From: an uncultured Verrucomicrobiota bacterium
GTDB lineage: Bacteria; Verrucomicrobiota; Kiritimatiellia; CAIQIC01; JAGNIJ01
DNA: 45,231 nt
Direction: 5' to 3'
Assembly: GCA_964421535.1 (NCBI GenBank)
Contig: CAYQYB010000002.1
Span: 1 to 45,231, forward strand
Positions 26,905 to 45,231 of the stretch are shown here, in pieces. The notes under the pieces were generated by a model. It was not told the DNA's origin. It saw only the letters and a list, made by a program, of their open reading frames with translations, and made no database searches. Position numbers and translations under genes: made by a program. Position 1 is the first letter of the stretch; each line of letters starts with the position of its first letter.

Positions 26905-28698
26905 TCACTGCGGGATAAATTCCACGCTGCTGAACCACAGGATGTGGGCGCGGGTCTTGGTCCGGCTGCCGTAGACCAGCCGCCGGTCCGCCCGCGCGCC
27001 GATGTAGCTGTACGCAGGCCATTGGAAGTCGGACGCGGAAATCCTGAACTCCACTCCCGGCCGCACGACCGCGTTGAACGCGACCTGCCCGTTGTAGAGG
27101 AATCCCGTGCTTCCGCGGAACGTGATGTTGCTGGCCGCAACCGAGACGCCGGAAGGCCGTCGGTACCCCATGCTATTGAACTTGATGATCACGTTCTGCG
27201 ACTGGTTGCTGGGCATGAACGTCAGCACGTCGCGGTAGCTGAACGTCTCGCGGTTCCACTCGAGCTCGTTGACATAGTCGGAGACCTGGTTGCGCCAGAC
27301 CGCCTCCTCGCCGAACCACGCGAACGTCGTCGGCGACGACTGCGGCGAGTAGGACGTGCTGGTTGCGTTTTCCGTTTCGCAATTCGGCGTCGGCACGTAG
27401 GTGCACGTCGTCACGCTCTGCTTGAGGATCTCCGTCAGCTGGCTGTCGGCCTTGGACCAGTGATCGCGGTACAGCCACCAACCGTCCACCGTGTCCCACT
27501 GCGGGATGTCGTTGAAGTACGCGAGCATGCTGTACCAGTTGCTGTACACGCCGTCCCAGAGCGTCTGCGGGAACGAGTTGCCCACGTAGACCGGCGGCGC
27601 GTTGCTGCCGGAGGTCGTCCGCGTGACGGACACCGTCACGCCGGCCGCGTGCCCCGCGGAGTCGCGCGCGAGGACCTGGATCCGGTTGAGCCCGTTCGTC
27701 AGGTAAACCTGCCCATACTGGAAGTACGACGTGAGCACGCCGTCCGCCCACTGGCCGTTCACGAAGACCTGGACGGGCCCGCAGTCGTCGAGCGCGTAGC
27801 CCTGCACCTGGACGTTCTCGAGGTCCGTCACGGTGCCGTTCGTCGGGAGGATGCCGGACAGCTGCGGCGGCAGGGTGTCGAAGACGAACCGCTGCTCGAT
27901 GAGTTCGCTTTCCGCGCCGTCGGACGAGCGCCGGAGCCGGGCGTACAGCACCTGCCACCCGTTGTTCGAGGACGACAGGTTGTAGGTGAAGATGCCGGGC
28001 AGCGGGTTGGTCGTGCTGTTTGCCATGTCCGGCGACTCCGAGATCACGACGGTGTCCGCGACGTGCGGCCCGAAGTCCACGCGGACCGCCGTGTTGGTGA
28101 CGTAGAACGCGTTGGTGTTCACGCGGAACTCGAGCATCGGCGCGCTCGCGGGGTTCGTCGGATGCGTGCCCATGAAGACTTCGTACCCGTCGAGCACCCA
28201 GTCCTTGTCCGAGTCGCGGTTCGTCGGGTTCGCGCCGTAAACGTACTCGCCGTAGTTGTACAGGCCGTCGCCGTCCTGGTCCTGCTGGCCGTCGGCCGCG
28301 TTCACCGGATCGAGAAAGCTCCAGCGGAGCTCGTACAGGTCGGGCATGCCGTCGCCGTCCTCGTCGAGCGAGTTCGTCTGCGGCACCCGGCGCACCTTGT
28401 AGAAGACCCTCTGGCTCGCGCCGGTGAGGAACGCCGTGTTCGTCCACGCCTGCATGCCGGCGAGGCCGAGCTCCATGTGGACCGCCGCGAAGCGGCCGGT
28501 CGGAGCGGGCGCCTGGTGGATCTGGAAGTACGAACTCGTGTCGCCGGGGAACCCGATGACCGCGTCGCGCGACGGGCCGCGATCGCCCGTGATCGTGAAC
28601 GATTGGGCAGCCGCAACAGCCGCCGCGAAAACGGCGGCGGCATAAAAGAATCGCGCGAGATGGAACAACCGATGCTTGATGGGAACAACCCCCTCCAC
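26905..28698 (-). CDS. secreted protein: N-terminal FYKVR-type module, thrombospondin-type-3-like Ca-binding linkers, Ig-like and unknown C-terminal domains
   Basis: 597-aa ORF with a GTG start at 28698 and a hydrophobic signal (LARFFYAAAVFAAAVAAAQS). Acidic DxDxDG repeats: DEDGDGMPDLYE, DQDGDGLYNYGE, DSDKDWVLDGYE. No catalytic motif recognised. Confidence 0.68.
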   Translation of the reverse strand: MEGVVPIKHRLFHLARFFYAAAVFAAAVAAAQSFTITGDRGPSRDAVIGFPGDTSSYFQIHQAPAPTGRFAAVHMELGLAGMQAWTNTAFLTGASQRVFYKVRRVPQTNSLDEDGDGMPDLYELRWSFLDPVNAADGQQDQDGDGLYNYGEYVYGANPTNRDSDKDWVLDGYEVFMGTHPTNPASAPMLEFRVNTNAFYVTNTAVRVDFGPHVADTVVISESPDMANSTTNPLPGIFTYNLSSSNNGWQVLYARLRRSSDGAESELIEQRFVFDTLPPQLSGILPTNGTVTDLENVQVQGYALDDCGPVQVFVNGQWADGVLTSYFQYGQVYLTNGLNRIQVLARDSAGHAAGVTVSVTRTTSGSNAPPVYVGNSFPQTLWDGVYSNWYSMLAYFNDIPQWDTVDGWWLYRDHWSKADSQLTEILKQSVTTCTYVPTPNCETENATSTSYSPQSSPTTFAWFGEEAVWRNQVSDYVNELEWNRETFSYRDVLTFMPSNQSQNVIIKFNSMGYRRPSGVSVAASNITFRGSTGFLYNGQVAFNAVVRPGVEFRISASDFQWPAYSYIGARADRRLVYGSRTKTRAHILWFSSVEFIPQ

Positions 28699-28797
28699 GC
28701 CCTAAGCGTGTGACAATAATTGCATAATTTGCATGAAAAGACAAACCGCAAATCGGGCGGTGAGCACGGAATCTTGACCGCGGATTACGCGGATAGT

Positions 28798-28821
28798 AGA
28801 CGCGATTTCGAAATCGCGTCT
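28798..28821. promoter_or_regulatory. perfect 24-bp palindrome (candidate operator)
   Basis: AGACGCGATTTC|GAAATCGCGTCT has two 12-bp arms and no spacer. It lies 2 nt upstream of a -35-like TTGACG in the divergent region between 28698 (minus gene) and 28862 (cyclophilin gene). Confidence 0.35.
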
Positions 28822-28823
28822 GC

Positions 28824-28851
28824 TTGACGGCGGCACGTTTCGGTGGATACT
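28824..28851 (+). promoter_or_regulatory. sigma70-like promoter candidate for the cyclophilin gene
   Basis: TTGACG (28824-28829), 16 nt, GATACT (28846-28851). The ATG at 28862 follows 10 nt later with no Shine-Dalgarno, giving a short or absent leader. Confidence 0.3.
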
Positions 28852-28861
28852 GCCCTGCCGC

Positions 28862-29707
28862 ATGAAGACGCGCGGATTTCTTGTCGTGTTCCTCCACAGC
28901 CTTCTGCTGGCCGCGGCGGCGGACGCGGGCACGCTGGTCCAGTTCCGGACCACGCTGGGGGACATGGTGGTCGAGCTGTACGACCGCGACAAGCCGGTCA
29001 CGGTGGCCAACTTCCTCCGCTACGTCTACTCCGGGCGCTACACCAACATCTTCTTCCACCGCTGCATCACCAACTTCGTGGTGCAGGGCGGCGGCTACGG
29101 CGTCGCGGACCCCGCATCGACGAACTCACTGGCCTTCTACATTCCCGTGTCGGCTTACGACGCGATCACGAACGAGTTCGGCGTCGGCACGCGCTACAGC
29201 AACGTGTACGGGACGATCGCGATGGCCAAGACGACGAACAGCCCGGACACGGCCACGTGCCAGTGGTTCTTCAACCTGGCCGACAACTCGGCGAACCTGG
29301 ACAACCAGAACGGCGGGTTCACCGTGTTCGGCCGCGTGATCAAGGGAACCAACGTCCTGGAGCAATTTAACAACCGCTCGCTGTGGAACGGCATAAGACC
29401 CTTGGATGCGGGCGTGTTCAGCGCGGTACCGGTGACGTTCGCCGGCACCGCGTGGCCGCACTACAACGAACTGATCTACGCAGCCGTCGAACCGCTGTCG
29501 GTCGAAATCCGCGCGGCCGCCGGCGGCGAGTGCACGCTCTCGTGGGCGGGCGTGGCGGGCATGACGAACATCGTCGAATACGCGGACACGCCATGGCCCG
29601 AGGACTGGCATTTCCTGCTGTCCACGAACCCGGCGGGCGGCGTGCTGAATGTTTCGGACCCGATGGCAGGCGCCACCAGCCGCGTTTACCGGATCCGTGT
29701 GGAGTGA
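28862..29707 (+). CDS. secreted cyclophilin-type peptidyl-prolyl cis-trans isomerase with C-terminal ~70-aa YRIRV module
   Basis: Signal peptide MKTRGFLVVFLHSLLLAAAADA. Cyclophilin core motifs: TVANFLRYVYSGRYTNIFFHRCITNFVVQGGGY, GTIAMAKT..SPDTATCQWFFNL, FTVFGRVIKGTNVLEQF. The C-terminal extension ends in ATSRVYRIRVE. Confidence 0.88.
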   Translation: MKTRGFLVVFLHSLLLAAAADAGTLVQFRTTLGDMVVELYDRDKPVTVANFLRYVYSGRYTNIFFHRCITNFVVQGGGYGVADPASTNSLAFYIPVSAYDAITNEFGVGTRYSNVYGTIAMAKTTNSPDTATCQWFFNLADNSANLDNQNGGFTVFGRVIKGTNVLEQFNNRSLWNGIRPLDAGVFSAVPVTFAGTAWPHYNELIYAAVEPLSVEIRAAAGGECTLSWAGVAGMTNIVEYADTPWPEDWHFLLSTNPAGGVLNVSDPMAGATSRVYRIRVE

Positions 29708-29877
29708 CACTACCGCACTGCCGTCCTCACATTCGGGGGCTCTCCCCTTCAGGCTTGCTTTTTGGGACCGGTTTTGTACACTGTTGGAAGCCGTTGCCGG
29801 AGGGGTAGTTCCGCGTAATCATCGAAAATCCTGCCTGGCGTATTGGCGAGTCTTTCAGGTGTTCAAAGGGGAGGGAT

Positions 29878-32800
29878 ATGCGCACGGACAGAACCAGGGC
29901 ACTCGTCGTTCTTCTCGTCTTTCTCGGCCTCGCATTTTCCTGCCGCGGCGGCACAACTCAACCGAACGGAAGCATCGGCGTCTCCATCGATGTCCCCGCG
30001 ATGAGTGTGACGCAATCGCCCGACGGCTTCGTGGACATCACGATCGACGGGTTCACCGCCGGCGGCCAATCGGCTCAGCCGATGCTTCCGATCAAAAATT
30101 CGTTCTACGCCCTCCCCCCCAACACAGATCCCGCCAGCGTGTCCGTGGTCGTCACGCGCGTGGAGTACGACGAGTCCGCCTTGCCCGGTCCGGTGCGGCC
30201 GCGCGGCGCGATGGCGCAAACCGGAAACCCGGATGCGCCGCTGTCCTACGGCGGCGCGACGAACGTCGTGGACGGCCGGGACATGGACGTGTACGGGCGC
30301 GATGCGTTCTTCCCGGCGCAGCCGGTCCGGCTGGCGGGCGTCCCGCAGATGCGGAAGTGGCAGTTCGCCGGCGTGACCGTCTGCCCCGTCGCGTATAACC
30401 CGGTGGCCTCGACTGCCCGCCGCTGCAGCCGCATCGAGTTCAGCATCCTCTATCGCCTGAAGACGAGCCCGCCGGCGGCCGCCACGTTGTCCGACTCAAT
30501 TATGGACTCCGCGGCGCTCGCGCTGGCGGCGAACCCGAAGGACGCCGCGGCATGGTACGGGACGCCCTCGACGATGGACGAGAAACCGTTCCTGGGCGTG
30601 GGCTATCTCATCATGACCACGGACCGGATCTACACGAACAGCCCCACGCTCTACGGGCTCGTGCCGCACAAGCAGATGATGGGCTACACGGTGTCCGTGG
30701 TGACGGAGACGGGCGTGGACGGGAATTCCGCGGCGACCGGCTGGAACGAGGTCACCGGGCAGTCGCCGGACGGCAAGGCGGACCGGATGCGGGAATGGCT
30801 TCAAATGCACGTCTCGAACTGGCACATCAAGTACGTCCTGCTGATCGGCGACCCGACGCCGGACACCGGCGACCTGCCGATGAAGATCTGCTATCCGGAG
30901 AGAACGGAAAGCACCGTGGCCACGGACTGGTACTACTCGGACCTGTCGGGCAACTGGAACCCGAACGGCGACGCGTACTACGGCAACTGGAGCGGCGACT
31001 ACCCGTACGGCTCGATCGATTTTCTCGCCGAAGCGATCGTGGGCCGGATTCCCGTCTACAACCAGGCGCACTGGCAGGGCATCCTGCGGCGGATCATCCT
31101 GAAGACGATCGCGTACGAGCGCGAGATGTACCCGTCCTGGCGCAGGCGGGCGCTCTTCGGCGAGACGTTCCTCGACGACGTGACCGACACGGCCTACCTC
31201 TCCGAAACGCTGAAGTCGCGCGTACTCAACGCGGAGGGCTTCGTGTCGCACACGATGTACGAGCAGGGCGGGCTGAGCTCGTACAGCGGCGCGACCAACC
31301 GCAACTCCATCTTCGATTCGGACGAGGAAGTGATGCACGAATCCGTGAAGAACAACTGGTCGAGCAACTTCTACGGCCTCGTCGAAATGTCGTGCCACGG
31401 CTCGTCGCGCGGCATGGGCTTCTCCGCGGGCAACCTTTTCGTGAGCTGGAACTGCGCGGCGTTGAACGACGCGATGCCCGCGCTGGTCTTCAACCTCGCG
31501 TGCAGCACGGGCTATCCCGAGGACAAGGACAACTGCGGATACTCCCTGCTGAAAAACGGCGCCATCGCATCGCTCGCGGCAACCCGGATGACCTACTACT
31601 ACGTGGGAACGCAGGAGCCGCAGATGTCCGGCGCGTCCGACCCGGCGATGGCCTATCACTTCTGCTCCCGCGCGGCGAGCAACCACGTGACCTTCGGCGA
31701 GGCGAACATCGCGATCGGCGAGATCATGGAGCTGAACAACGCCGGCGACTGGAACAACGTGATGACGTGCAACATCTACGGCGACCCCAGCCTCGCGCTC
31801 CGGCCGATCCTGCCGGACGATTCCGACGGCGACGGAATGCCCGACGCGTGGGAGTCCCTGCAGTCGCTCAACCCGAATGACCCGCAGGACGCGTTGCAGG
31901 ACACTGACGGCGACGGGCTGGCGAACAAGCAGGAATACGTCTGCCTCTCTGACCCGCGCGTCCAGGACTCGGACGGCGACAGCCTGTCCGACGGCGTGGA
32001 AGCCCAGCGCTTCGATTTGATCACCGGCGACCGGACCTGGGAGCAATCGCGCGTGGACGCTCTTTCGCGCACCGGCCACCTGGCCACCATCACGACCGAG
32101 GGCGAGTGGATGTTCATCCGCGCGTCGTTCAACAGCGCGCTGCAGAGCCGCTACACATGGCTCGGCGCGAGCGATGCGGAGACCGAAGGAACATGGAAAT
32201 GGGTCACCGGCGAAACATGGGGCTTCACCCGCTGGCTGCCGGGCCAGCCGGATGCCGGAATCATTCAGAACTATCTCGCCATCTGGGGCGAGGCCAGCAC
32301 CAACCTGATGTGGGATGACGGGTTCCCAACCGCAACCGCGCCGGGCTATCTCTTCGAGCGAAGCTGGTCAAGCGCGCCGATGAACCCGGATACCGACGTG
32401 GACGACATCCCCGACGGCTGGGAATTCATCAACGGGCTCGATTGCACGTCCGCGGCCGACGGCGAAGCGGACACCGACGGCGACGAGCTTTCGAACATCA
32501 CCGAGTATCAGCTCGGCGCAGATCCGGCTGACGTGGACACCGACGACGACGGGTTGACGGACGGGGCCGAGGCGATGCGTTACCAGCTCGTCGGCACATA
32601 CCTTACCTGGCCGCAGGCGCGCGACGAGGCGCAGAGCCGCGGCGGGCATCTCGCCACGATCACCAGCGAGGCCGAATGGGTCCAGATCCAGTCTTTGCTC
32701 GGCTATGCCCTTCAGGGCAAGTACGTGTGGATCGGCGCGAGCGATGCGGAGGCCGAGGGCCAGTGGAAATGGGTGACCGGCGAGCCGTGGGGCTACGCGC

Positions 32801-33264
32801 GCTGGATGCCGGGGCAGCCGGACGGCGGCACATACCAGAATTACATTGCCATCTGGGGATCCGCGGATCCCGAGGAACTTCGCTGGGATGACGGCAACTC
32901 GACCGCGGGATATTTTCTCATGGAGAAAGACTGGTCCAGCAATCCGACGCGGCCCGACACCGACGGCGACGGGATGAAGGATCGCGACGAGGTCGTGGCG
33001 GGCACCGACCCCTCCGATACCGGATCCGTGTGGCGCGCTGCGGCCGCGGCCGCGCCGACGAACTCGCAGCTGCTTCGCATCTCCTGGAACATGTCGAGCG
33101 GGCGCACGTACAGCATTCACCGCCGCTACGGGCTCTCGGGCACCAACGCGTGGTCCGCCGTGCCGGGCTACACCAACATCGCAGGAACCGGGCTCTACAC
33201 GGCCGAACTGGCCATCCCGTCCGATGTCTCCAATTGTCTTTTCAAAGTACGGGCAATGAAGTAG
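29878..33264 (+). CDS. secreted gingipain-like cysteine peptidase (family C25) with TSP3-like linkers, two C-type lectin-like domains and C-terminal FKVR module
   Basis: GGGGAGGG lies upstream of ATG 29878, with signal peptide MRTDRTRALVVLLVFLGLAFSC. C25-like catalytic contexts: VEMSCHGSSRG (His) and LVFNLACSTGYP (Cys), followed by GAIASLAATRMTYY. This order matches gingipain GHGS ... ACxxG ... ASTxxS. It is followed by DSDGDGMPDAWE/DTDGDGLANKQEY linkers and two CTLDs (WLGASDAETEGTWKWVTGE..., WIGASDAEAEGQWKWVTGE...). Confidence 0.86.
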   Translation: MRTDRTRALVVLLVFLGLAFSCRGGTTQPNGSIGVSIDVPAMSVTQSPDGFVDITIDGFTAGGQSAQPMLPIKNSFYALPPNTDPASVSVVVTRVEYDESALPGPVRPRGAMAQTGNPDAPLSYGGATNVVDGRDMDVYGRDAFFPAQPVRLAGVPQMRKWQFAGVTVCPVAYNPVASTARRCSRIEFSILYRLKTSPPAAATLSDSIMDSAALALAANPKDAAAWYGTPSTMDEKPFLGVGYLIMTTDRIYTNSPTLYGLVPHKQMMGYTVSVVTETGVDGNSAATGWNEVTGQSPDGKADRMREWLQMHVSNWHIKYVLLIGDPTPDTGDLPMKICYPERTESTVATDWYYSDLSGNWNPNGDAYYGNWSGDYPYGSIDFLAEAIVGRIPVYNQAHWQGILRRIILKTIAYEREMYPSWRRRALFGETFLDDVTDTAYLSETLKSRVLNAEGFVSHTMYEQGGLSSYSGATNRNSIFDSDEEVMHESVKNNWSSNFYGLVEMSCHGSSRGMGFSAGNLFVSWNCAALNDAMPALVFNLACSTGYPEDKDNCGYSLLKNGAIASLAATRMTYYYVGTQEPQMSGASDPAMAYHFCSRAASNHVTFGEANIAIGEIMELNNAGDWNNVMTCNIYGDPSLALRPILPDDSDGDGMPDAWESLQSLNPNDPQDALQDTDGDGLANKQEYVCLSDPRVQDSDGDSLSDGVEAQRFDLITGDRTWEQSRVDALSRTGHLATITTEGEWMFIRASFNSALQSRYTWLGASDAETEGTWKWVTGETWGFTRWLPGQPDAGIIQNYLAIWGEASTNLMWDDGFPTATAPGYLFERSWSSAPMNPDTDVDDIPDGWEFINGLDCTSAADGEADTDGDELSNITEYQLGADPADVDTDDDGLTDGAEAMRYQLVGTYLTWPQARDEAQSRGGHLATITSEAEWVQIQSLLGYALQGKYVWIGASDAEAEGQWKWVTGEPWGYARWMPGQPDGGTYQNYIAIWGSADPEELRWDDGNSTAGYFLMEKDWSSNPTRPDTDGDGMKDRDEVVAGTDPSDTGSVWRAAAAAAPTNSQLLRISWNMSSGRTYSIHRRYGLSGTNAWSAVPGYTNIAGTGLYTAELAIPSDVSNCLFKVRAMK
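31990..32960 (+). repeat. tandem duplication of a ~190-aa [acidic linker + C-type lectin-like domain] unit inside the C25 gene
   Basis: The register offset is 570 nt. The core at 32158-32259 versus 32728-32829 is 83/102 nt identical by my hand alignment. Protein units are DGVEAQRFDLITGDRTWEQSR...SWSSAPMNPDTD and DGAEAMRYQLVGTYLTWPQAR...DWSSNPTRPDTD. Confidence 0.8.
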
Positions 33265-33289
33265 TTATTCCCGGGGATAGGGAGACATA

Positions 33290-33883
33290 ATGAGGGTGAG
33301 GGACAGGACAACCATCCGCGACGTAATCTGGTTCCAGTATTCCAAACTCGTCGCGCGGCGCGCCTACAAACTGCCGGACGGGCACGAAGCCAAGAAGCAC
33401 TGCTACGGATTCATCAAGGAACTGCTCGACGAACTCCGAGAAGGCACAAAGACCTGGTCCGACATCACGCGCGAAAACTGGCCGCCCGCCGCCGCCGAAA
33501 CAAGCTGCCTGTACTGCGGGAGCGCGGACGACCTCGATCGCGTCCCCGTCCTGCCCAGGCCTCACCTGATCGAGGACCGCTGCCCCTACTGCGACAAGAA
33601 ACAATCCGCCCGCTTCCTCGTTTGGGTCTGCGGTTCCTGCGCCCGGGAAAAGAGCGGCATGGGGTTCTACGAATTCTTCAGGCTGCGGATGGCGGACCAG
33701 CGCAAGTTCTACGACTTCATCCCCGCCCTCGCGGAGAAGAAGTACCTCGAAGCCGCATACCAGTGCCTCGAATGCGCGAACCGCCTGGACGAAGGCGACC
33801 AGGACGGCGACGACGAGCTCACCGTCCTGGACATCGACCACGCGCTGAAACCGAACGGCGCGTCACCGCATCCCGAAGACTAA
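33290..33883 (+). CDS. Cys-rich HNH/zinc-ribbon-like protein, catalytic residues apparently substituted
   Basis: 197-aa ORF with AGGGAG 6 nt upstream of the ATG. Three CxxC pairs (CLYC, CPYC, CGSC) are laid out like HNH nucleases (CxxC ... D/E-H ... N ... CxxC-N-xx-K). The expected His position reads DLDRVPVLP and the CxxCN position reads CGSCAREKSG. From memory, the N-terminal IRDVIWFQYSKLVARRAY...KKHCYGFIKELLDEL region resembles a family of ~190-aa HNH proteins. Confidence 0.5.
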   Translation: MRVRDRTTIRDVIWFQYSKLVARRAYKLPDGHEAKKHCYGFIKELLDELREGTKTWSDITRENWPPAAAETSCLYCGSADDLDRVPVLPRPHLIEDRCPYCDKKQSARFLVWVCGSCAREKSGMGFYEFFRLRMADQRKFYDFIPALAEKKYLEAAYQCLECANRLDEGDQDGDDELTVLDIDHALKPNGASPHPED

Positions 33884-33894
33884 GCTCTTCAACG

Positions 33895-34122
33895 TCAGCG
33901 CCTGCCTGAAGCCAGTCGTGGCCGGCGTGTTCTCTTTGCTTGTTTCGGCCGGCGAGCGACCGCGCACCCGACTTCGCGCTGCATGGCCGTTAGGCCCTCC
34001 GCCCAGGCCTCCACGTGCGGCACCACCCCGTACGCGCCGGCCTTCTTCAGCCGCTCGAGCTTGCACACTTCCTCGCTCAACGTTTCATCGCCCGACTTCA
34101 CTGTCTTCGCTTTTGTTTTCAT
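33895..34122 (-). CDS. hypothetical small protein (75 aa)
   Basis: I place the start at ATG 34122 (AAGGAG 10 nt upstream) rather than the listed 34155. Sequence MKTKAKTVKSGDETLSEEVCKLERLKKAGAYGVVPHVEAWAEGLTAMQRE... with a basic tail. Convergent with the HNH-like gene (11-nt gap). No recognisable domain. Confidence 0.4.
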   Translation of the reverse strand: MKTKAKTVKSGDETLSEEVCKLERLKKAGAYGVVPHVEAWAEGLTAMQREVGCAVARRPKQAKRTRRPRLASGRR

Positions 34123-34402
34123 GTTCTGCGCACTCCTTTCGAGTGTCCATCGCACCCTGTAAATCTATGCCACCTCCCGTGCCTGTCAAACCGCAGCCTG
34201 CGGCCGGCGTGCTGCACTTTTGAGCAGTGGGTCAAGTCGCCGCGCAGTCCACCCCCGACTCTCTTCGAGGTCGGGGCGCCGGCGGCGGCGAAAGAGGCGT
34301 AGCCGCGCCCGCAAGGGCGTGGCGAATGGGAATGACAGACCCACTTCCCACTTTTGATCCTGCTTGCGCGGTCCGTTCACGGCGGGTAGCCTCTCTGTTG
34401 CC

Positions 34403-35161
34403 ATGCCCCTGTCGCCCAACGAGCTGCACGCGTTCGTGGACGCGACGATCCGGAAGCTGAAGGACGCCGGGTTGAACGCCGGCGCCCTGGAGCGTGTGCA
34501 GTCCGCGGCTTACACAACCGGGTCCGAATGGAGGGGAGAGCTGGGGCTCGCCATCTGGAAAATCGCGGGCCAGGACATTCGCGACGAGGCGATCTGGAAA
34601 GACCTCGACCTGATCGCCATGGAAGTCCGCCGCGCGTGGCCGGGTTTTCCGCGCGCCAAAAAGAACTCCATCCATCCCTCGCTCAGAACCAACCTCTGGC
34701 TGAATCAATTCGTCGGCATGCCGCTCATGGCCCTGATCGCGGCCGGCATCTTCCGCTCGGTCATCGCCGCGGCGATCCGGGGCGACGAGGACTGGCCGCT
34801 CCTTCTCTTGCGCGCCGGCATCGGCCTGATCTTCGTCTGGGCGGCGGCGCACGCGTGGACCAGCGGGCGGTGGTACCGGCGCGTGTCGCGGCTCGTCCAG
34901 CAAAGCGAGGCCGTGCCGGTGAACGTCGAGTTCGGCTGGCTGGAGCACGCGCTCGTCGCGACGGTCAGGCCGAAAGTGCCCGGACAGTTTCCGGGCCGAT
35001 CCGTCGTATGCGGTCCGCCGGACTGGAAAGTTGATTTGGTGAAGGGAACGGAGATCCTCGGCTACGTGGACCCGGACCCGCGCGGGCCCGTCGTTCTCGA
35101 GACCGCGTGCGGGCTCATCTGGCCGCTCGAGCGGGGCAGCGTCGAGGTCCTGAAGGAGTGA
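34403..35161 (+). CDS. hypothetical membrane protein (2 predicted TM helices)
   Basis: ATG 34403 is preferred over the listed TTG 34364. It has an ~85-aa helical N-terminal domain, two hydrophobic helices (FVGMPLMALIAAGIFRSVIAAAI and WPLLLLRAGIGLIFVWAAAHAW) and a ~90-aa C-terminal domain. No motif recognised and no clear RBS. Confidence 0.5.
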   Translation: MPLSPNELHAFVDATIRKLKDAGLNAGALERVQSAAYTTGSEWRGELGLAIWKIAGQDIRDEAIWKDLDLIAMEVRRAWPGFPRAKKNSIHPSLRTNLWLNQFVGMPLMALIAAGIFRSVIAAAIRGDEDWPLLLLRAGIGLIFVWAAAHAWTSGRWYRRVSRLVQQSEAVPVNVEFGWLEHALVATVRPKVPGQFPGRSVVCGPPDWKVDLVKGTEILGYVDPDPRGPVVLETACGLIWPLERGSVEVLKE

Positions 35162-35223
35162 TGGCCGCGATTCCCCGGATCGCTGTTGTCAGACCCTGCT
35201 CGCTGTACTACTTTATATAGACC

Positions 35224-36731: not shown

Positions 36732-36866
36732 TCATCCTCGACACGCCGCTTCAAAACAGGATAAAGAGGGCCGTGTTACTCCCCGGGCCTCCGAATCGCC
36801 GTCTTGGCAGGCGCGAGCGGATGGGAACGTGCCCAACTGGGATGCGAACAGGGAAGGGATAGAATA

Positions 36867-39530: not shown

Positions 39531-39539
39531 CGCGCGCGT

Positions 39540-41051
39540 TCACCGCGCCGCCCTCACGCGGTAGTATGCGGCGTCGGCGGGTGCGTCGGTGTAGATGTTG
39601 ACGGGCGGCGTCGCCGCAATGTTCGACGCCACGACGGAAAACTGCTGAAGCAGGTTCGTGGACCGACCCACCTCGTAGGTCCGGCCTGTGACGCTGCTCC
39701 ACTGCACGACGACTCCGCCCGCGTCCTCCGGCGACGGACTTTCCATGCGAAACAGCGAGTTCGAGTCGGACGGGCTCGTTCCCGCAATGAATTCCTGGGC
39801 GTTGAGAAAATGATCGCCGTCAAGGTCGCCGGCGGCATCTCCCGCCGTGTTGGTGCTCAGGCCGTAGTACACCTCCCACGCGTCATGCATGCCGTCCGCG
39901 TCCGCGTCGGCGAATATCTCGTCGACGCGCAGGATGCGGCCGCCGGAGTAGTCGCACACGTAGATGCGGCCGTCTTCGCCTTCGCCGAACCCCGTGATGT
40001 TGAACGCCGCCTGCAGGAGCTGGTTGGTCCGCCACAGTCCGCCGTCCCGCTTGAGGGCCCAGAGGCGGCCGCTGCAGTAATCGGCGAACAGATACGCGCC
40101 ATACATGTAGGAATAGTAAACGCCGCGGTACACCTTGCCGCCGGTGACCGAACAGCCGAGCGAGTGGTCGTACTCGGCCACGGGCATCGTGAGGCCGTTC
40201 GTGCCGCACGTGTTCAGGCTGGTGCAGTGAAAGCCTTCGAAGGACCTCCAGCCGTAATTCTGCCCGCCCGAGCTCGACGCAGGCTGGAAGTTCACCTCTT
40301 CCCACACGTTCTGGCCGACGTCACCAATGTACAGGTCGGCCGTGACCCGGTCGAACGCCCACCGCCACGGGTTGCGAAGGCCCAGCGCCCAGATCTCGGG
40401 CCGGAAACCGCCCACGCCGACAAACGGGTTGTCCGCGGGTATCGCGTAGGTCGTCCCATTCGGCGGCTCGACGCCGATCCGGAGCATCTTGCCGAGCAGC
40501 TGGCTCGTGTTCTGCGCGAGATTGGAGGGATCGTTTCCGGAGCCGCCGTCGCCGAACCCGACGTAGAGATACGCGTTATTGGAGGGGCTGAAGCCGATCT
40601 GCCCGCCATTGTGATTCGCGTACGGCTGGTGCACGCGAAGCAGCTGCTCCTCGCTGTTCGTGTCGGCAAGGTTCGGGTTGCCCGGCAAGAGCCAGAAGCG
40701 GGAGACCACCGAGGTCCAGCCGGGGTCCGTATATGAAACGTAGAAGTGCCGGCCGGTCGCGAACCCGGACGGGAAAGCGACGCCGAGAAGGCCCTGCTCT
40801 CCTCCGAATATGATCCGGCTTCCGATGTCGAGCAGCGTGCCGATGACCACCCCGTTGCTGACGATCAGGATCTGTCCGCTCTGCTGAACAACGTACAGCC
40901 GCCCGCTGCCGTCCCCCGCGCTTGCCACCTCCACGGGCGCCGACACGCCGGTGACGACCGGGGTCAGCGCGATCGACGGCCAGTTCGCCGCCGCCGCGCA
41001 GACGGCCGTCCCGAGAACGATCAGCACAGCCTGACGCCATCCGGAGTCCAT
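39540..41051 (-). CDS. secreted PQQ-dependent sugar dehydrogenase (soluble glucose/sorbosone dehydrogenase family) with TSP3-like linker and C-terminal YYRVR module
   Basis: GGAGG lies 5 nt upstream of ATG 41051. Family motifs: GGEQGLLGVAFPSGFATGRHFYVSYT, HQPYANHNGGQIGFSP, YVGFGDGGSGNDP, LLGKMLRI, IWALGLRNPWRWAFD, LYIGDVGQNVWEEVN. The C-terminus has DADADGMHDAWEVYYG...DLDGDHFLNAQEF and ends in AAYYRVRAAR. Confidence 0.87.
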   Translation of the reverse strand: MDSGWRQAVLIVLGTAVCAAAANWPSIALTPVVTGVSAPVEVASAGDGSGRLYVVQQSGQILIVSNGVVIGTLLDIGSRIIFGGEQGLLGVAFPSGFATGRHFYVSYTDPGWTSVVSRFWLLPGNPNLADTNSEEQLLRVHQPYANHNGGQIGFSPSNNAYLYVGFGDGGSGNDPSNLAQNTSQLLGKMLRIGVEPPNGTTYAIPADNPFVGVGGFRPEIWALGLRNPWRWAFDRVTADLYIGDVGQNVWEEVNFQPASSSGGQNYGWRSFEGFHCTSLNTCGTNGLTMPVAEYDHSLGCSVTGGKVYRGVYYSYMYGAYLFADYCSGRLWALKRDGGLWRTNQLLQAAFNITGFGEGEDGRIYVCDYSGGRILRVDEIFADADADGMHDAWEVYYGLSTNTAGDAAGDLDGDHFLNAQEFIAGTSPSDSNSLFRMESPSPEDAGGVVVQWSSVTGRTYEVGRSTNLLQQFSVVASNIAATPPVNIYTDAPADAAYYRVRAAR

Positions 41052-41345
41052 AGAACCTCCGCATCCTGGGTCAATATAACCCGGGATGCCGGCGATTCCA
41101 CGCAGGCGCCGGCTGCGGCCGCCGGGTGGACATCCAAAGCCCGGCGGCGAAGCCCGTTGCGCTCAAGTCAGGTTTTTCGAACCCCACAGGGCTGGGCACT
41201 CCGGCGACGTAATCCGACTGCGGGATCCTTCGACCACAAGGCCGTAGACACGCGTGCATTCATGGCTTCACCCCTGCGTCTTTAGTCTTTGACAGCGTGC
41301 CGCCATTGCGGCCAAATTCCCGCACAAGGAGCGTATGACTACCCC

Positions 41346-44300
41346 ATGAGAAGGAAACAATTCATGCCCGTCTGCCGGATCGCCGTTTACATGCTGATGG
41401 TTTCCGTCGCACCCGTCTTTGCCGAGAGCAACACCGTCACGCTCGTTTCCGGCATCTACAGCAACTCGCCGAGCGGCGTGATCGTCGGCTTCACGGGAAC
41501 CAATAATTCGCTGACCGTCCAGAGTGCCGGCGTCCTGAACACCACGAACTTCTCCGCGGTCGGAATCATGACCGAGGCGTGCTTCAACGCGGCCACCGTC
41601 ACGGGCGCCGGCTCGACCTGGTCCAGCGGCGCCGGGCTCTACGTCGGCGGCTATGGCTCGTTCAACCGGCTGACGATCGCCGCGGGCGGACGGGTCCTCG
41701 TCAGCAACATCGCGTTCATGGCCATGGACCCGGTGTCGTCCAACAACACGATGCTGATTACCGGATCCGGTTCGGCGTTCATCGTGCCCACCAACCGCGA
41801 GATTGACATCGGCTATGCGGGCAGCGGCAACAGCGTCACCATTTCCAACAGCGGGTGCCTGGCCGCCGGGCAGGTTTCGATCGGGATGGCGGCAACCGCG
41901 TCGCGAAACAGCCTGCTCGTCTACGGCGGCACGGTCACCGCCAACTACGTCTATGTCGGCGACGAAGGAGGCTACAGCAATCGCCTCCTCCTGTCGGGCG
42001 CCGGGACCCTCCTCTTCGTATCCAACACTCTGGCCTGCGGCGCGTCGGGCCGCGCGGGCCGCATGGAGATCCTAGATGGCGCGCGCGCCGAGAACGGCTG
42101 GGGCCAGATCGGCTGGGAACTCGGCAGCGACTCGAACATCGTCGTCGTCTCCGCCTCGACGTGGTCGAACCGCAACGACCTCTACCTTGGATTCCGCGGC
42201 TCGTACAACACGCTTGTCGTTACCAACGGCGGCAAAGTGTACAGCCGCGGCTGGACGGCCATCGCCGGGGATTCCAACAGCGCGGGCAACACAGCCATCG
42301 TGACAGGACCCGGCTCCGCATGGGTCACGACCAACGAGTTCCGCGTCGGCCATAACGGCTCGTCCAACCGCCTCGAGATCCGCGACGGGGCCAGCGTGTC
42401 GAACGGCTGGAGCGCGCACGTCGGCGACTCCGCCACCGCCCACGGCAACAGCGTCCTCGTCACCGGAACCAACACGCGCTGGGTGATCCGGGAAACGTTC
42501 CGCATCGGCGAGTATTCGGCGGGGAACCGGATGGACCTGCGCGACGGCGCGTTCCTGTCCGACTCCAACGCCTACCTCGGCGCAGGGTTCTCCGGGTTCT
42601 CCGGCAACGTCGTCTGCGTGTCCGGGCCCGGCACGGTGTGGACAAACACCGGCGAGGTGGACCTGTACGGCGGCGGCAACGTTCTGACCGTCAGCAACGG
42701 CGCGGTTGGCTATTCCCTCGAGCTCACGGCCAACGGCGGCGGCGCGACCGGCGGCATCGTGCTCGACGGCACGAACACGCGCTGGCTCTGCGCGGGCCGC
42801 GCGGGAGCCGGCCTGTACTCGTCGGACTCGAGCCTCACGATCACCAACGGCGCCCGCCTCGCCAGCGGCAACGGCTCGATCGGCCTGGGCACGGTCGAGA
42901 GCAACATGGTCGTGGTGACCGGCTCCGGCTCCGTCTGGTCCAACAGCGGCTCTCTCCGGGCCGGGTACGACGGCAACGCGAACTCGCTGACCGTTGATCG
43001 GGGCGGCCAGGTCTTCTGCTCCGACGGCAGCGTGGGCGCGGACACCGGCGGGGATTGGAACTTCGCGCGGGTATCGGATACGGGCTCCCTCTGGCGCTGC
43101 TCGGGAAGCCTGCTGGTCGGCAACAGTCACTTCAACCGCCTCCTCGTCGAGAACGGAGCCGCGCTCGCCTGCACGTCCGCCGTCGTCGGCTGGGGCACCT
43201 CGAACGAAGTCGTGGTGACGGGCGCGGGCTCGTCGTGGTCGAACTCCGGCGGCCTCGTGATCGGCGCCGGCTCGTTCGGCGAGCAGAACCGGTTCATGGT
43301 GAGCGGCGGCGCATGCGCCTGGACCCGCAGCGCGATCCTCGGCGAGAGGATCGGCACCGCTAACTGCGCCGTGGTGACGGGCGGCGGGTCCGTGTGGACG
43401 AGCGCGGCCTGGATCACCGTCGGCCTGACCGGGCTGTACAACCGACTGCTCGTGGAAGACGGCGGCGCGGTCTACTGCCGGACCGGCTTCGTCGGAGCGG
43501 CCGCCGGAAGCACCGGCAACGTCGCGTGCGTCTCCGGCACAGGCTCCCTCTGGAGCATCGCCACGCGGCTCTACGTCGGGTTCAGCGGCGTCGGCAACCG
43601 GATGGTCGTCGAACAGGGCGGCGCGGTGAACGCCGACCGCGGCTACGTCGGATTCACAAACGCCTCCGGCAGCGAGCTGGTTGTGGATGGCGGGCGGATG
43701 ATCTTCACGAACTTCCTGGAAGTTGGCGACGGCGCCTCCGGCAGCCGGCTCACGATCACGAACGGGGGGCTTGTGCAGGATGACTACGCGATCCTGGGCT
43801 ACTACGGATCCTCATCGAACAATGAGGCCGTCGTCAGCGGTCCGGGCAGCATCTGGTCAAACGTCACCGACCTGCAGGTCGGCCGCCTCGGCACGAACAA
43901 CGGCCTCCGCATCGAGCGCGGCGGCGCGGTGTACGCGGACAGCGTCAGCCTCTCGGGCAACGGCGGGGCCGCAAACCGCCTCGTCGTCGCGGATACCGGC
44001 TCCCTTCTGGTCTGCGCAGGAATGCTGCACGTGTCCTACGGATCGAGCAACTCCGTCATGATCTGCAGCGGTGCGACGGTCCGCACGACCGGAGGCGGCG
44101 CCTTCGGGTTCAACCCGGGAGCGGACAGCAACACGATGACCATCGCGGGCCACGGCACCCGGTTCATCTCCGCGGACAACTACCAGATCGGCTGGCAATC
44201 GGGCTGCAACCGCTTCACGGTCCGCGACGGCGCGTACGTCGAGCTGGCCCGGTCCAGCGACATCGGCTCGCGCGGCTCGCGAAACGTCGCCGTCGCGGAT

Positions 44301-45231
44301 GGCGCGGGAACCATCTGGACGAACCGGGCCGACCTGAACATCGGATCCACGTTCAGCAACTACTTCGGCAACCGGCTCGAGATCACGAACAGCGCGGCGG
44401 TCCACGTGGACGGCCACTTACTCGTGGGCCGCCGATGGGACCGCGGGTCGAACGACGTTGCCGTCGTCTATCCGGACTCGTTGTTGATCGTGCGCTCGAA
44501 CCTGTGGGTGATCAGAGGGACGAACGAACTGCGCGGCGGCACGATCCGCGCCGGCGCATTGGTGATGACCAACAGCACAGCGCGAATGGCGTTTGAGAGC
44601 GGGACGCTCTCGATCGGTGCCGCCGAGGTGTCCAATGGCGTGCCTCTGCTTGTCGGCGGCGCGCTGACGTTCGGCGGCGGCTCCTTCCGTTTCGCGGACG
44701 GATTGCGGGTCGGCACAAACGCGATGGCGAGCGGCGTGGGGACCGTGAAGGTGGACTCCGCGTCGTTCGTCAACCACGGCACGGTCACCTTCGGAACCCC
44801 GGCCGCGCCGGGGCAGATTGTCGTGGATGGATCCTTCAGCCAGCAGATCACCGGCCGGCTGACGTTCAAGCTTGCGGGCGACCAGCCGGGTTCCGGGCAT
44901 GACCAGCTCGCCGTGCTCGGCAAGTACAACAACTTCGGTACGCTGACCGTCACCCGGACCACCGGCTTCCTGCCGAAGGCGGGCCAGGAGTTCTGGCTGA
45001 TCACGTACACGAACTGGAACGGCGTCTTCGGGGCCGAGGAACTCCCCCCCTGGTTCGGCTGGACGGTGCAGTACACGCCCACCGGCATCGCCGTCTACGT
45101 GATGAGCGTCGAGACCGCGACGAACGGCGTGCCGAAGGCGTGGCTCGCGGACAGCGGCTGGACCAACAACTTCGACGCCGCGGCGACCAACGATGCCGAT
45201 GGTGATCATGTCGCGACGTGGCAGGAATACT
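41346..45231 (+). CDS. secreted beta-helix repeat protein (T5SS/PEP-CTERM-associated-repeat-like), 3' end beyond window; absent from the ORF track
   Basis: My translation in the frame of ATG 41346 (alternative ATG 41364) gives MRRKQFMPVCRIAVYMLMVSVAPVFAES..., a signal peptide. I found no in-frame stop to nt 45231; the frame was spot-checked codon by codon at about 42060, 42960, 43020, 43320, 43800, 44400, 44460 and 45060. There are about 18 repeats of ~60 aa with the pattern V(T/S)G(x)GS(x)W(x)n L(x)VG(x)nN(R/S)L(x)(V/I)(x)(N/D)GG(x)V. The visible end is NDADGDHVATWQEY, the start of a TSP3-like linker. No listed + ORF uses this frame, as expected if the track only reports ORFs closed by a stop. 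Confidence 0.85.
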   Translation, partial: MRRKQFMPVCRIAVYMLMVSVAPVFAESNTVTLVSGIYSNSPSGVIVGFTGTNNSLTVQSAGVLNTTNFSAVGIMTEACFNAATVTGAGSTWSSGAGLYVGGYGSFNRLTIAAGGRVLVSNIAFMAMDPVSSNNTMLITGSGSAFIVPTNREIDIGYAGSGNSVTISNSGCLAAGQVSIGMAATASRNSLLVYGGTVTANYVYVGDEGGYSNRLLLSGAGTLLFVSNTLACGASGRAGRMEILDGARAENGWGQIGWELGSDSNIVVVSASTWSNRNDLYLGFRGSYNTLVVTNGGKVYSRGWTAIAGDSNSAGNTAIVTGPGSAWVTTNEFRVGHNGSSNRLEIRDGASVSNGWSAHVGDSATAHGNSVLVTGTNTRWVIRETFRIGEYSAGNRMDLRDGAFLSDSNAYLGAGFSGFSGNVVCVSGPGTVWTNTGEVDLYGGGNVLTVSNGAVGYSLELTANGGGATGGIVLDGTNTRWLCAGRAGAGLYSSDSSLTITNGARLASGNGSIGLGTVESNMVVVTGSGSVWSNSGSLRAGYDGNANSLTVDRGGQVFCSDGSVGADTGGDWNFARVSDTGSLWRCSGSLLVGNSHFNRLLVENGAALACTSAVVGWGTSNEVVVTGAGSSWSNSGGLVIGAGSFGEQNRFMVSGGACAWTRSAILGERIGTANCAVVTGGGSVWTSAAWITVGLTGLYNRLLVEDGGAVYCRTGFVGAAAGSTGNVACVSGTGSLWSIATRLYVGFSGVGNRMVVEQGGAVNADRGYVGFTNASGSELVVDGGRMIFTNFLEVGDGASGSRLTITNGGLVQDDYAILGYYGSSSNNEAVVSGPGSIWSNVTDLQVGRLGTNNGLRIERGGAVYADSVSLSGNGGAANRLVVADTGSLLVCAGMLHVSYGSSNSVMICSGATVRTTGGGAFGFNPGADSNTMTIAGHGTRFISADNYQIGWQSGCNRFTVRDGAYVELARSSDIGSRGSRNVAVADGAGTIWTNRADLNIGSTFSNYFGNRLEITNSAAVHVDGHLLVGRRWDRGSNDVAVVYPDSLLIVRSNLWVIRGTNELRGGTIRAGALVMTNSTARMAFESGTLSIGAAEVSNGVPLLVGGALTFGGGSFRFADGLRVGTNAMASGVGTVKVDSASFVNHGTVTFGTPAAPGQIVVDGSFSQQITGRLTFKLAGDQPGSGHDQLAVLGKYNNFGTLTVTRTTGFLPKAGQEFWLITYTNWNGVFGAEELPPWFGWTVQYTPTGIAVYVMSVETATNGVPKAWLADSGWTNNFDAAATNDADGDHVATWQEY

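What the first reader, a model, noticed from the sequence alone, without database searches (positions are those of the whole stretch)
26905..45231. Shared acidic TSP3-like linker plus ~65-aa W..G..Y...(F/Y)Y(R/K)(V/I)R module on functionally unrelated secreted proteins: possible common anchoring/display system
Seen: an acidic DxDxDG(M)xDxWE ... DxDGDGxxNxxE(Y/F) linker is followed by a small module with the pattern (L/V)x(I/V)xW...G..Y.(I/V)......(F/Y)Y(R/K)(V/I)R at the C-terminus of two proteins. They are the C25 peptidase (LLRISWNMSSGRTYSIHRRY...CLFKVRAMK) and the PQQ sugar dehydrogenase (VVVQWSSVTGRTYEVGRST...AAYYRVRAAR). The cyclophilin carries the module (CTLSWAGVAGMTNIVEYAD...SRVYRIRVE), but I saw no acidic linker before it. 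In the 26905-28698 protein the order is mirrored at the N-terminus, right after the signal peptide: module (...SYFQIHQAP...QRVFYKVRRV) and then linkers. The beta-helix protein at 41346 reaches an NDADGDHVATWQEY linker exactly at the window edge. Established: TSP3-type repeats bind calcium. C-terminal conserved domains mark cargo in systems such as T9SS and PEP-CTERM/exosortase. Inference: the module is a common cell-surface attachment or sorting domain for a set of exoenzymes. Its occurrence at an N-terminus argues for a binding domain rather than a cleaved C-terminal tag. I cannot name the family.
Basis: partly seen in the sequence, partly recalled or inferred. Interest (0 to 1): 0.62.

Follow-up and report, generated by a model that had tools for sequence, protein, structure and literature searches.

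The report
Shared FN3-like tail on secreted enzymes
Several unrelated secreted enzymes in this Verrucomicrobia-type genome end in the same calcium-loop linker plus small fibronectin-III-like domain; this belongs to a large uncatalogued family that almost always sits at the very end of exported proteins, so it may be a surface-address tag, but that role is untested.

Summary
A profile built only from outside sequences finds the module at the C-termini of the PQQ dehydrogenase (E 4e-23), the cyclophilin (3e-13) and the C25 peptidase (4e-8). Orthologues of the truncated beta-helix protein all end in linker plus module. The N-terminal copy in the 597-aa protein is only probable (hhalign 70%).

The module is a short FN3 relative. 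It has strands A-F, and the chain stops 4-6 residues after the R of FYR(V/I), where ordinary FN3 continues with the FG loop and G strand. No Pfam or NCBIfam model hits it. A three-sequence profile found 2252 representative proteins.

In 80 loci, 69 of them labelled Kiritimatiellia, Verrucomicrobiota or Lentisphaerae, 95 of 99 carrier ORFs with a stop codon end within 10 residues of the module. 69 of 95 have TSP3 loops just upstream. Cargo spans 58 Pfam families.

Most likely it is a C-terminal localisation or retention cassette for exoenzymes (about 0.45). An ordinary FN3 spacer or binding module is the main rival (0.33).

The parts
39543..39752 (-). Terminal FN3-like module of the PQQ/GSDH sugar dehydrogenase (aa 434-503), 'ATPPxNxYTD' subfamily; ends ...AAYYRVRAAR-stop
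   Evidence: External-only HMM iE 3.6e-23. AF2 pLDDT 82.5 with six strands. Foldseek top hits are 3mpc and 5g56, both Fn3.
39753..39917 (-). Acidic TSP3-type linker pair of the PQQ protein (aa 379-433: DADADGMHDAWE ... DLDGDHFLNAQEFIAGTSPSD)
   Evidence: Motif scan. NCBIfam partial matches to the TSP3 regions of MtsD and Amuc_1099.
39540..41051 (-). PQQ-dependent glucose/sorbosone dehydrogenase gene (503 aa) carrying the cassette
   Evidence: Pfam GSDH 3.2e-36. The gene is absent at this position in the related contig L081.
33049..33261 (+). Terminal FN3-like module of the C25 peptidase (aa 1058-1128); ends ...CLFKVRAMK-stop
   Evidence: External-only HMM iE 3.7e-8. hhalign 95.0% against the family.
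32950..33024 (+). TSP3 unit directly before the C25 module (aa 1025-1049: RPDTDGDGMKDRDEVVAGTDPSD)
   Evidence: Pfam TSP3_bac at residues 1027-1047, 48.5 bits.
31807..31977 (+). Internal TSP3 pair of the C25 protein (aa 644-700) between the catalytic domain and the first C-type lectin domain
   Evidence: Motif scan. NCBIfam CglD, MtsD and Amuc_1099 partial matches at residues 648-710.
29878..33264 (+). C25 (gingipain-family) peptidase gene, 1128 aa: propeptide, catalytic domain, two C-type lectin domains, TSP3 units, terminal module
   Evidence: Pfam Peptidase_C25 2.7e-30, Lectin_C 5e-17, Propeptide_C25 3e-7.
29495..29704 (+). Terminal FN3-like module of the cyclophilin (aa 212-281), with no TSP3 linker; ends ...SRVYRIRVE-stop
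   Evidence: External-only HMM iE 2.5e-13. hhalign 97.7%.
28862..29707 (+). Secreted cyclophilin-type peptidyl-prolyl isomerase gene (281 aa)
   Evidence: Pfam Pro_isomerase 6e-35.
28381..28602 (-). Probable divergent copy of the module at the N-terminus of the 597-aa protein (aa 33-106, directly after the signal peptide; ends ...RVFYKVRRVP)
   Evidence: hhalign of the orthologue profile against the family: probability 70%, E 4e-5, 70 columns, score 27.3 against a shuffle maximum of 16.1. The HMM matches only the last strand, iE 0.63. AF2 pLDDT 42.
28165..28374 (-). TSP3-type repeats of the 597-aa protein (aa 109-178), downstream of the N-terminal module
   Evidence: Motifs at residues 112 and 140. 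NCBIfam MtsD and CglD partial matches at residues 108-173.
26905..28698 (-). 597-aa secreted protein of unknown function (Glucodextran_B-like Ig domain at aa 278-360); four orthologues in metagenomes
41346..45231 (+). Beta-helix protein with 15 T5SS/PEP-CTERM-associated repeats (TIGR04393), cut by the contig end inside the linker
   Evidence: NCBIfam TIGR04393 1.3e-79. Orthologues P0184-P0188 (38-87% identical over the region), plus the more distant homologues P0189 and P0190, end in linker plus module.
45117..45231 (+). Start of the beta-helix protein's linker (TNGVPKAWLADSGWTNNFDAAATNDADGDHVATWQEY)
   Evidence: blastp to the linkers of three module-bearing proteins. Orthologue P0184 continues ...YAGTDPTNGVSFFQCLEV... 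and then the module.

Best explanation
WHAT IT IS (shown). The element is a modular cassette. It has one or two bacterial TSP3-type acidic calcium-loop repeats ending in (E/Q)(Y/F)xAGT(D/S)PxD. These are followed by a ~65-aa beta-sandwich that is a remote fibronectin-III homologue. The sandwich comprises only strands A, B, C, C', E and F. The polypeptide stops 4-6 residues after the R of the F-strand motif (F/Y)Y(R/K)(V/I), where canonical FN3 continues with the FG loop and G strand. The family is very large, has no Pfam or NCBIfam model, and is concentrated in PVC bacteria (Kiritimatiellia, Verrucomicrobiia, Lentisphaeria). It sits almost always at the extreme C-terminus of proteins that carry an N-terminal hydrophobic, signal-peptide-like segment and have unrelated catalytic or binding 'cargo'.

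HOW IT MOST LIKELY WORKS (inferred). After Sec export, the calcium-loaded TSP3 loops form a stiff acidic stalk. The terminal G-less FN3 domain, with its free C-terminus, serves as a common localisation handle. It is recognised by, or binds to, a cell-envelope component, so that diverse exoenzymes (here a C25 protease, a cyclophilin, a PQQ sugar dehydrogenase and a beta-helix adhesin-like protein) are retained or displayed on the cell surface rather than lost. It would be a functional analogue of C-terminal sorting domains such as the T9SS CTD, not a relative of them.
For: Family membership of the three window modules is shown. The beta-helix protein is a carrier by orthology.

Size of the family: 2252 representatives at E<=1e-3 with a three-sequence profile.

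Terminal placement: 49 of 49 single-copy top hits. In genomic loci with real stop codons, 95 of 99 ORFs are terminal, including 88 of 92 single copies. The chain ends 4-6 residues after the R of FYR in most cases.

Cargo independence: 58 Pfam families in 61 carriers, including subtilases (6), C25 peptidases (4) and alpha-amylases (3).

Export: 69 of 82 carriers have an N-terminal hydrophobic segment, against 55 of 164 control ORFs.

Cassette: 69 of 95 carriers have TSP3 motifs within 90 aa upstream. The consensus of 61 unrelated proteins retains only the cassette.

Positional equivalence with known C-terminal sorting signals: TIGR04393 'T5SS/PEP-CTERM-associated repeat' proteins end in the cassette here. 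C25 peptidases, which from general knowledge carry a T9SS CTD in Porphyromonas, end in it five times. PEP-CTERM tails occur in the same PVC loci but never together with the module.

Fold and G-strand loss.
Against: No receptor, sortase-like enzyme or translocon was identified. No gene family recurs next to carriers; the most frequent one is in 6 of 80 loci.

The same G-less module forms tandem arrays of 2-8 copies with Pro-rich linkers. It probably also occurs once at an N-terminus (N597). The fold itself is therefore not restricted to a terminus and behaves like an ordinary extracellular repeat.

Bacterial Fn3 modules are usually spacers or binding modules, and the closest solved relatives are cellulosomal Fn3 modules.

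Modules within one genome are only 26-46% identical, so a single receptor would have to read little more than the fold and the FYRV end.

The terminal-position statistics come from profiles seeded with terminal copies. There are no experimental data on localisation or processing.
Confidence: 0.45

Rival explanations
1. It is an ordinary FN3-type structural or spacer module with no role in localisation. The G-less FN3 is a stable six-stranded extracellular repeat. On this view it accumulates at C-termini because 3'-end domain accretion is the easiest way to shuffle a small cassette, and because nothing but a Pro-rich linker or a stop codon is tolerated after the F strand.
For: Homology to FN3 is clear. 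Tandem arrays of the same module exist. The closest solved relatives are cellulosomal Fn3 modules (3mpc, 5g56); from general knowledge such modules are usually regarded as structural spacers. No partner gene was found. There is a probable N-terminal copy in N597. The 75% identical cassettes on unrelated genes in L081 show that the cassette moves between genes.
Against: Spacer domains are normally internal, between functional modules. Here 88 of 92 single copies are the very last element, where a spacer has nothing to space. The cyclophilin carries it directly, with no other module. The near-constant chain end 4-6 residues after FYR suggests selection on the free terminus.
Confidence: 0.33
2. 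It is a carbohydrate- or substrate-binding module (CBM-like) that targets exoenzymes to polysaccharide or glycoprotein substrates rather than to the producer's own surface.
For: The profile also weakly matches the discoidin/CBM32-type domains of glucanases (4zy9, 2rv9; E 1e-4). Many carriers are glycan-active enzymes such as alpha-amylases. The subfamily has an invariant surface-loop motif, ATPPxNxYxD.
Against: The cargo includes a cyclophilin, proteases, a PQQ dehydrogenase, RCC1 propellers and beta-helix repeat proteins, which share no common glycan substrate. CBMs show no such strict C-terminal placement. The conserved residues are mostly FN3 core positions (W, Y, L, Y).
Confidence: 0.12
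3. It is a cleaved outer-membrane translocation signal in the strict T9SS-CTD sense. The module would be recognised by a dedicated translocon, removed, and the cargo covalently attached to a surface glycolipid.
For: The placement is extreme C-terminal and cargo-independent, on cargo families that use CTDs in Bacteroidota. A conserved AGTDPxD junction precedes the module.
Against: There is no match to Por_Secre_tail or TIGR04183. Tandem arrays and the cyclophilin fusion without a linker fit a cleaved tag poorly. No machinery is known in PVC bacteria or was seen here.
Confidence: 0.08
4. It is a chance resemblance of short low-complexity C-termini.
For: Some pairwise scores between window modules are weak, for example PQQ against the cyclophilin at z 1.8.
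Against: The external-profile E-values range from 4e-23 to 4e-8, and there are thousands of homologues.
Confidence: 0.01

Closest known systems
Fibronectin type III domain (Pfam fn3, PF00041), especially bacterial 'Fn3-like' modules of cellulosomal enzymes (PDB 3mpc; the Fn3 of CtXyl5A, 5g56)
   Same: It is a beta-sandwich with W in strand B, Y in strand C, a 'tsYtD' E strand and a 'YYRVxA' F strand. The profile hits 3mpc at E 2.5e-5. Foldseek's best hits are 3mpc and 5g56, with TM 0.59-0.62 and 28% identity. The module profile also retrieves canonical PF00041 arrays.
   Different: No member reaches PF00041 even at E<=1. The FG loop and G strand are missing. The repeat period is 75-80 aa against about 90 aa. 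It sits at the extreme C-terminus rather than internally.
T9SS C-terminal domain (type A CTD: Por_Secre_tail PF18962 / TIGR04183) of Bacteroidota
   Same: Both are small Ig-like beta-sandwiches at the very C-terminus of Sec-exported proteins. Both are independent of cargo and are found on the same kinds of cargo, such as C25 peptidases, subtilases and glycosidases.
   Different: There is no sequence match. This is a different superfamily (FN3, six strands). It can be tandemly repeated. No T9SS or other machinery is identified. Cleavage and attachment are unknown.
Bacterial TSP3 repeats (Pfam TSP3_bac PF18884; the TSP3 regions of MtsD, CglD and Amuc_1099)
   Same: The linkers are DxDxDGxxDxxE calcium-loop repeats. 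Pfam hits the C25 protein, and NCBIfam gives partial matches in N597, C25 and PQQ.
   Different: Here the repeats form a fixed junction (…E(Y/F)xAGTDPxD…) with a specific terminal domain. TSP3 repeats as such are generic.
PEP-CTERM/exosortase sorting signals
   Same: Both are C-terminal ends on secreted proteins of the same phyla. The TIGR04393 repeat proteins that usually carry PEP-CTERM or an autotransporter barrel carry the cassette here.
   Different: The module has no PEP motif, transmembrane helix or basic tail (sequence read directly). The two endings never co-occur in the loci examined.
X-module-dockerin dyads of cellulosomal scaffoldins
   Same: Both pair an Ig/FN3-like module with a duplicated calcium-binding segment at a protein terminus and attach many enzymes to a surface scaffold. 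This comparison comes from general knowledge and was not tested.
   Different: No dockerin (PF00404) match was found. The order is reversed, except in N597. No cohesin-like partner was found.

Membership tests
Pfam fn3 (PF00041) | Sequence match above the gathering threshold | tested here: not met
   There is no PF00041 hit for the window modules at E<=10, for 41 family members at E<=1, or for arrays of the module (P0005, P0008, P0017, P0002) at E<=0.01. Canonical arrays scanned in the same call score 1e-109 to 1e-30.
FN3 superfamily (fold level) | FN3-type beta-sandwich topology with remote profile similarity | tested here: met
   The AF2 model has pLDDT 82.5. Foldseek top hits are 3mpc and 5g56, followed by many FN3 domains. 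The profile against PDB sequences hits 3mpc at E 2.5e-5.
FN3 superfamily (fold level) | Seven strands A-G | tested here: not met
   The model has six strands. In the alignment to 3mpc, FYR pairs with YYY at chain residues 69-72 of 103. Canonical copies continue with xNxxGxS and a G strand, whereas the module ends or goes straight into a Pro-rich linker.
T9SS CTD (Por_Secre_tail PF18962 / TIGR04183) | Sequence match to the CTD models | tested here: not met
   There is no such hit in Pfam or NCBIfam for the whole proteins or the modules.
T9SS CTD (Por_Secre_tail PF18962 / TIGR04183) | Extreme C-terminal position on Sec-exported, unrelated cargo | tested here: met
T9SS CTD (Por_Secre_tail PF18962 / TIGR04183) | Presence of T9SS machinery (SprA/Sov, PorK-N, PorU/V) in the genome | not testable with these tools
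Nothing of the kind is in the window.
PEP-CTERM (exosortase substrates) | PEP motif, hydrophobic helix and basic tail at the C-terminus | tested here: not met
   The tails are ...YYRVRAAR...FKVRAMK and ...YRIRVE. A regex scan of the window found none. The eight PEP-CTERM ORFs in the PVC loci lack the module.
Bacterial TSP3 repeat (PF18884) | DxDxDGxxDxxE calcium-loop repeat matching the model | tested here: met
   C25 scores 48.5 bits against a cutoff of 25. For PQQ and N597 there are only motif-level matches and NCBIfam partial matches.
Dockerin (PF00404) | Duplicated F-hand matching the model | tested here: not met
   There is no hit at E<=0.1 in any of the eight proteins scanned.

The most novel reading that the evidence does not exclude
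The FYRV-terminal, G-strand-less FN3 domain is the cargo signal of an undescribed export or attachment pathway found across the PVC group. Its exposed F-strand edge and free C-terminus would be recognised, perhaps by beta-strand complementation, by an outer-membrane receptor or translocon. Dozens of exoenzymes per cell would then be displayed on the surface by one shared mechanism, as with the T9SS CTD in Bacteroidota. The TSP3 loops would supply a calcium-stiffened stalk.
Probability: 0.12. Interest if true: 0.85.

Novelty: new variant of a known kind. Interest (0 to 1): 0.5.

Why it matters
PVC bacteria such as Kiritimatiellia, Verrucomicrobia and Lentisphaerae are major degraders of complex and sulfated polysaccharides. 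How they keep their very large exoenzyme sets at the cell surface is unknown. A single uncatalogued cassette that closes thousands of unrelated exported proteins is a concrete handle on that question. It defines a testable tag through reporter fusions, surface proteomics and C-terminal mass spectrometry. It also gives a search image for partner machinery and a missing domain model for annotation. If it is only a spacer, the result still removes a recurrent 'unknown C-terminal domain' from these genomes by assigning it to the FN3 superfamily.

Tried and rejected
- Word-indexed search with the PQQ module region: it found only the protein itself.
- MAFFT of the four reader-defined segments: poor alignment. 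Pairwise Smith-Waterman is significant only for C25/PQQ and C25/N597.
It was replaced by the ATPP subfamily alignment.
- AF2 of the N597 N-terminal region with five orthologues: pLDDT 42, uninformative.
- Conserved neighbour or partner gene: none. The largest non-carrier family is in 6 of 80 loci.
- Small PEP-CTERM proteins next to carriers as possible cohesin-like receptors: there are eight, mutually unrelated (CBM- or LamG-like), none is in the window, so this was rejected.
- Concerted evolution of modules within a genome: within-locus identity is 37%, the same as between loci. L081 is an exception at 75%.
- Taxon names for the broader family through the listing of cluster members: only one labelled member, from Verrucomicrobiota.
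- Exact look-up of the window's PQQ protein: not on record.
- Literature searches for a described PVC C-terminal domain or sorting system: nothing relevant.
- Dockerin, T9SS CTD and PEP-CTERM membership: no matches.

Full report
**Anatomy of the region.** The window is a whole contig of about 65% G+C.
- The stretch 26905-45231 encodes a 597-aa secreted protein ('N597', minus strand).
- Next come a 281-aa cyclophilin and a 1128-aa C25 peptidase with two C-type lectin domains.
- Then follow a 197-aa Cys-rich protein, a membrane protein, a type I phosphodiesterase and a 908-aa duplicated GH2-like protein.
- The last two genes are a 503-aa PQQ glucose/sorbosone dehydrogenase (minus strand) and a beta-helix protein of more than 1295 aa.
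- The beta-helix protein is made of 15 T5SS/PEP-CTERM-associated repeats and runs off the contig.
I did not verify that. N597's orthologues are labelled Verrucomicrobiota or Planctomycetota MAGs.

Profile methods settle the matter.
- A three-sequence profile (PQQ, C25, cyclophilin) was searched against 1.84 billion representative proteins. It found 2252 proteins at E<=1e-3 and 65 at E<=1e-10.
- I rebuilt a profile from 318 external domains, leaving out the window's PQQ protein, the only window protein among the representatives. I ran it on all six frames of the window.
- It hits exactly the three C-termini: PQQ 3.6e-23, cyclophilin 2.5e-13, C25 3.7e-8. Nothing else scores below 0.03.
- hhalign of the cyclophilin and C25 modules against 41 external terminal modules gives 97.7% and 95.0%.
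- Neither Pfam nor NCBIfam has a model that matches the modules or 41 relatives.

**The linker.**
- Pfam TSP3_bac matches the unit directly before the C25 module.
- D.D.DG..[DN]..E motifs are present in N597 (2), C25 (4) and PQQ (1, plus a degenerate second).
- NCBIfam gives partial matches to the TSP3 segments of MtsD, CglD and Amuc_1099.
- The cyclophilin has none.
- When 61 unrelated carrier proteins from other genomes are aligned, the only consensus that survives is the cassette: D....G..D.WE - ~14 aa - D.D.DG.....E..AGT.P....S - ~15 aa - module.
- 69 of 95 terminal carriers have a TSP3-like motif within 90 aa upstream.

**The beta-helix protein.**
- Its last residues (…TNGVPKAWLADSGWTNNFDAAATNDADGDHVATWQEY) align to linkers that precede a terminal module in three other proteins.
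- Five orthologues (38-87% identical over the last 315 residues) and two more distant TIGR04393-type proteins all end in …YAGTDP… plus the module (iE 1e-16 to 1e-8).
- The window copy is therefore a fifth carrier that lacks only about 70 residues.

**The N-terminal copy in N597.**
- The family HMM matches only the FYKVRRV strand (iE 0.63).
- Four orthologues were retrieved.
- Their profile aligns over 70 columns with the terminal-module alignment. hhalign probability is 70%, E is 4e-5 and the score is 27.3. Sixty column shuffles gave a mean of 10.6, an sd of 2.4 and a maximum of 16.1.
- Against the broader 318-domain alignment only the last strand matches.
- The AF2 model is unusable (pLDDT 42).
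- I treat this as a probable, divergent and shortened copy. It is not an established one.

**What the module is.**
- AF2 with 41 sequences gives pLDDT 82.5 and six strands.
- Foldseek's best PDB matches are the Clostridium thermocellum 'Fn3-like protein' 3mpc and the Fn3 of CtXyl5A (5g56). TM is 0.59-0.62 at 28% identity, and many FN3 domains follow.
- A sequence profile against PDB sequences independently finds 3mpc (E 2.5e-5) and 5g56.
- The profile also retrieves canonical FN3 arrays. P0077, P0021 and P0078 are PF00041 arrays with up to 15 repeats.
- In those arrays the motif YYYRVRA is strand F. It is followed by xNxxGxS and a G strand, and the period is about 90 aa.
- In arrays of the present module (P0005, P0008, P0017, P0002) RFYRVxLx is followed directly by a Pro-rich linker and the next A strand. 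The period is 75-80 aa and PF00041 does not match.
- In terminal copies the protein ends 4-6 residues after the R of FYR, and the last residue is most often P or E.
- The module is therefore an FN3 relative comprising strands A-F only.

**Distribution and placement.**
- The PQQ module belongs to a subfamily with an invariant ATPPxNxYxD loop.
- A scan of one genome per GTDB species with that motif gave 159 confirmed sites.
- I counted the record titles of the 80 best loci by hand. 15 are labelled Kiritimatiellia, 39 Verrucomicrobiota-type, 15 Lentisphaerae or Victivallales, 9 unlabelled and 2 other phyla.
- In these 1.2 Mb, 100 ORFs carry the module. Of the 99 with a stop codon, 95 end within 10 residues of it (92 within 5).
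- 88 of 92 single copies are terminal, and 14 of the 79 carrier loci hold two to four carriers.
- Among the top 150 database representatives, 49 of 49 single-copy hits are terminal.
- The cargo is extremely diverse: 58 Pfam families in 61 proteins, led by subtilases, C25 peptidases and alpha-amylases.
- 69 of 82 carriers with a complete 5' end have an N-terminal hydrophobic segment, against 55 of 164 control ORFs. This is a crude proxy for a signal peptide.

**Search for a partner.**
- No gene family recurs beside carriers.
- PEP-CTERM proteins occur in the same loci (8) and never carry the module. They are mutually unrelated, and none is in the window.
- Modules within a locus are no more alike than modules from different genomes (37% against 37%). 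The window's own modules are 26-46% identical.
- In a related contig (L081) a subtilase and the beta-helix orthologue carry cassettes that are 75% identical. The PQQ gene is absent from between the GH-like and beta-helix genes there. The cassette and its carriers are therefore mobile on short timescales.

**Interpretation.** The structural assignment and the family-level statistics are shown. The function is inferred.
- Four observations favour a localisation or retention handle over a spacer, because a spacer at the very end has nothing to space. These are the very strict terminal placement, the constant short tail after the F strand, the independence from cargo, and its occurrence where related cargo in other lineages carries PEP-CTERM, an autotransporter barrel or a T9SS CTD.
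- Four observations count against that reading. The module forms tandem arrays. It probably occurs once at an N-terminus. No machinery was found. Bacterial FN3 modules have an ordinary record.
- I put the localisation reading at about 0.45. An ordinary FN3 spacer or cap is at 0.33, glycan binding at 0.12, and a cleaved translocation signal in the strict T9SS sense at 0.08.

**Relation to earlier notes of this scan.** Three earlier follow-ups on other Kiritimatiellia genomes described the same cassette and reached similar conclusions. I treated them as leads and re-derived each point here. They are not independent support.

**Limits.**
- The placement statistics come from profiles seeded with terminal copies.
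- Taxon labels are available only for the ATPP subfamily.

Noticed in passing
L081:2-1660 and L081:6832-10986 (related metagenome contig): A subtilase-like protein and the beta-helix orthologue carry linker-plus-module cassettes that are 75% identical, although their bodies are unrelated. This points to recent cassette exchange or gene conversion between genes of one genome. Elsewhere within-locus identity (37%) equals between-genome identity.
   Followed up: partly
window 39540-41051 versus L081:4057-10986: In the related contig the GH2-like gene is followed directly by the beta-helix gene. The PQQ dehydrogenase gene (opposite strand in the window) is missing there, so it is a recent insertion or deletion within an otherwise syntenic exoenzyme island.
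   Followed up: partly
window 29878-33264: The C25 (gingipain-family) peptidase carries two C-type lectin domains, each bracketed by TSP3 units. This is an unusual architecture for a bacterial C25 protease. C25 peptidases with the same terminal module recur in four other PVC loci.
   Followed up: partly
window 33290-33883: A 197-aa Cys-rich protein has several CxxC pairs and only a faint PHF5-like match (E 0.014). It has no signal peptide and sits between the C25 gene and a membrane protein. Its function is unknown.
   Followed up: no
window 26905-28698: N597 belongs to a small family of four metagenomic orthologues, 60-96% identical over the N-terminal region. It has only a sub-threshold Glucodextran_B-like Ig domain, and the conserved C-terminal ~230 aa have no family assignment.
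   Followed up: partly
P0191 (weak homologue of the beta-helix protein): A distant beta-helix homologue (E 1e-6) ends in a FlgD_ig-like domain (PF13860) at the position where the window family carries the TSP3/FN3-like cassette.
   Followed up: no
L002, L003, L009, L012, L013, L030, L042: Small PEP-CTERM proteins (111-348 aa, CBM- or LamG-like) lie close to module carriers in seven PVC loci. They are heterogeneous and never carry the module.
   Followed up: partly
L048:62-2905 (Zixibacteria MAG) and L077 (Gemmatimonadales MAG): Two of the 80 best loci are labelled outside the PVC group. In L048 the module is internal, 380 aa from the end. This could be a binning error or a horizontal transfer.
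   Followed up: no
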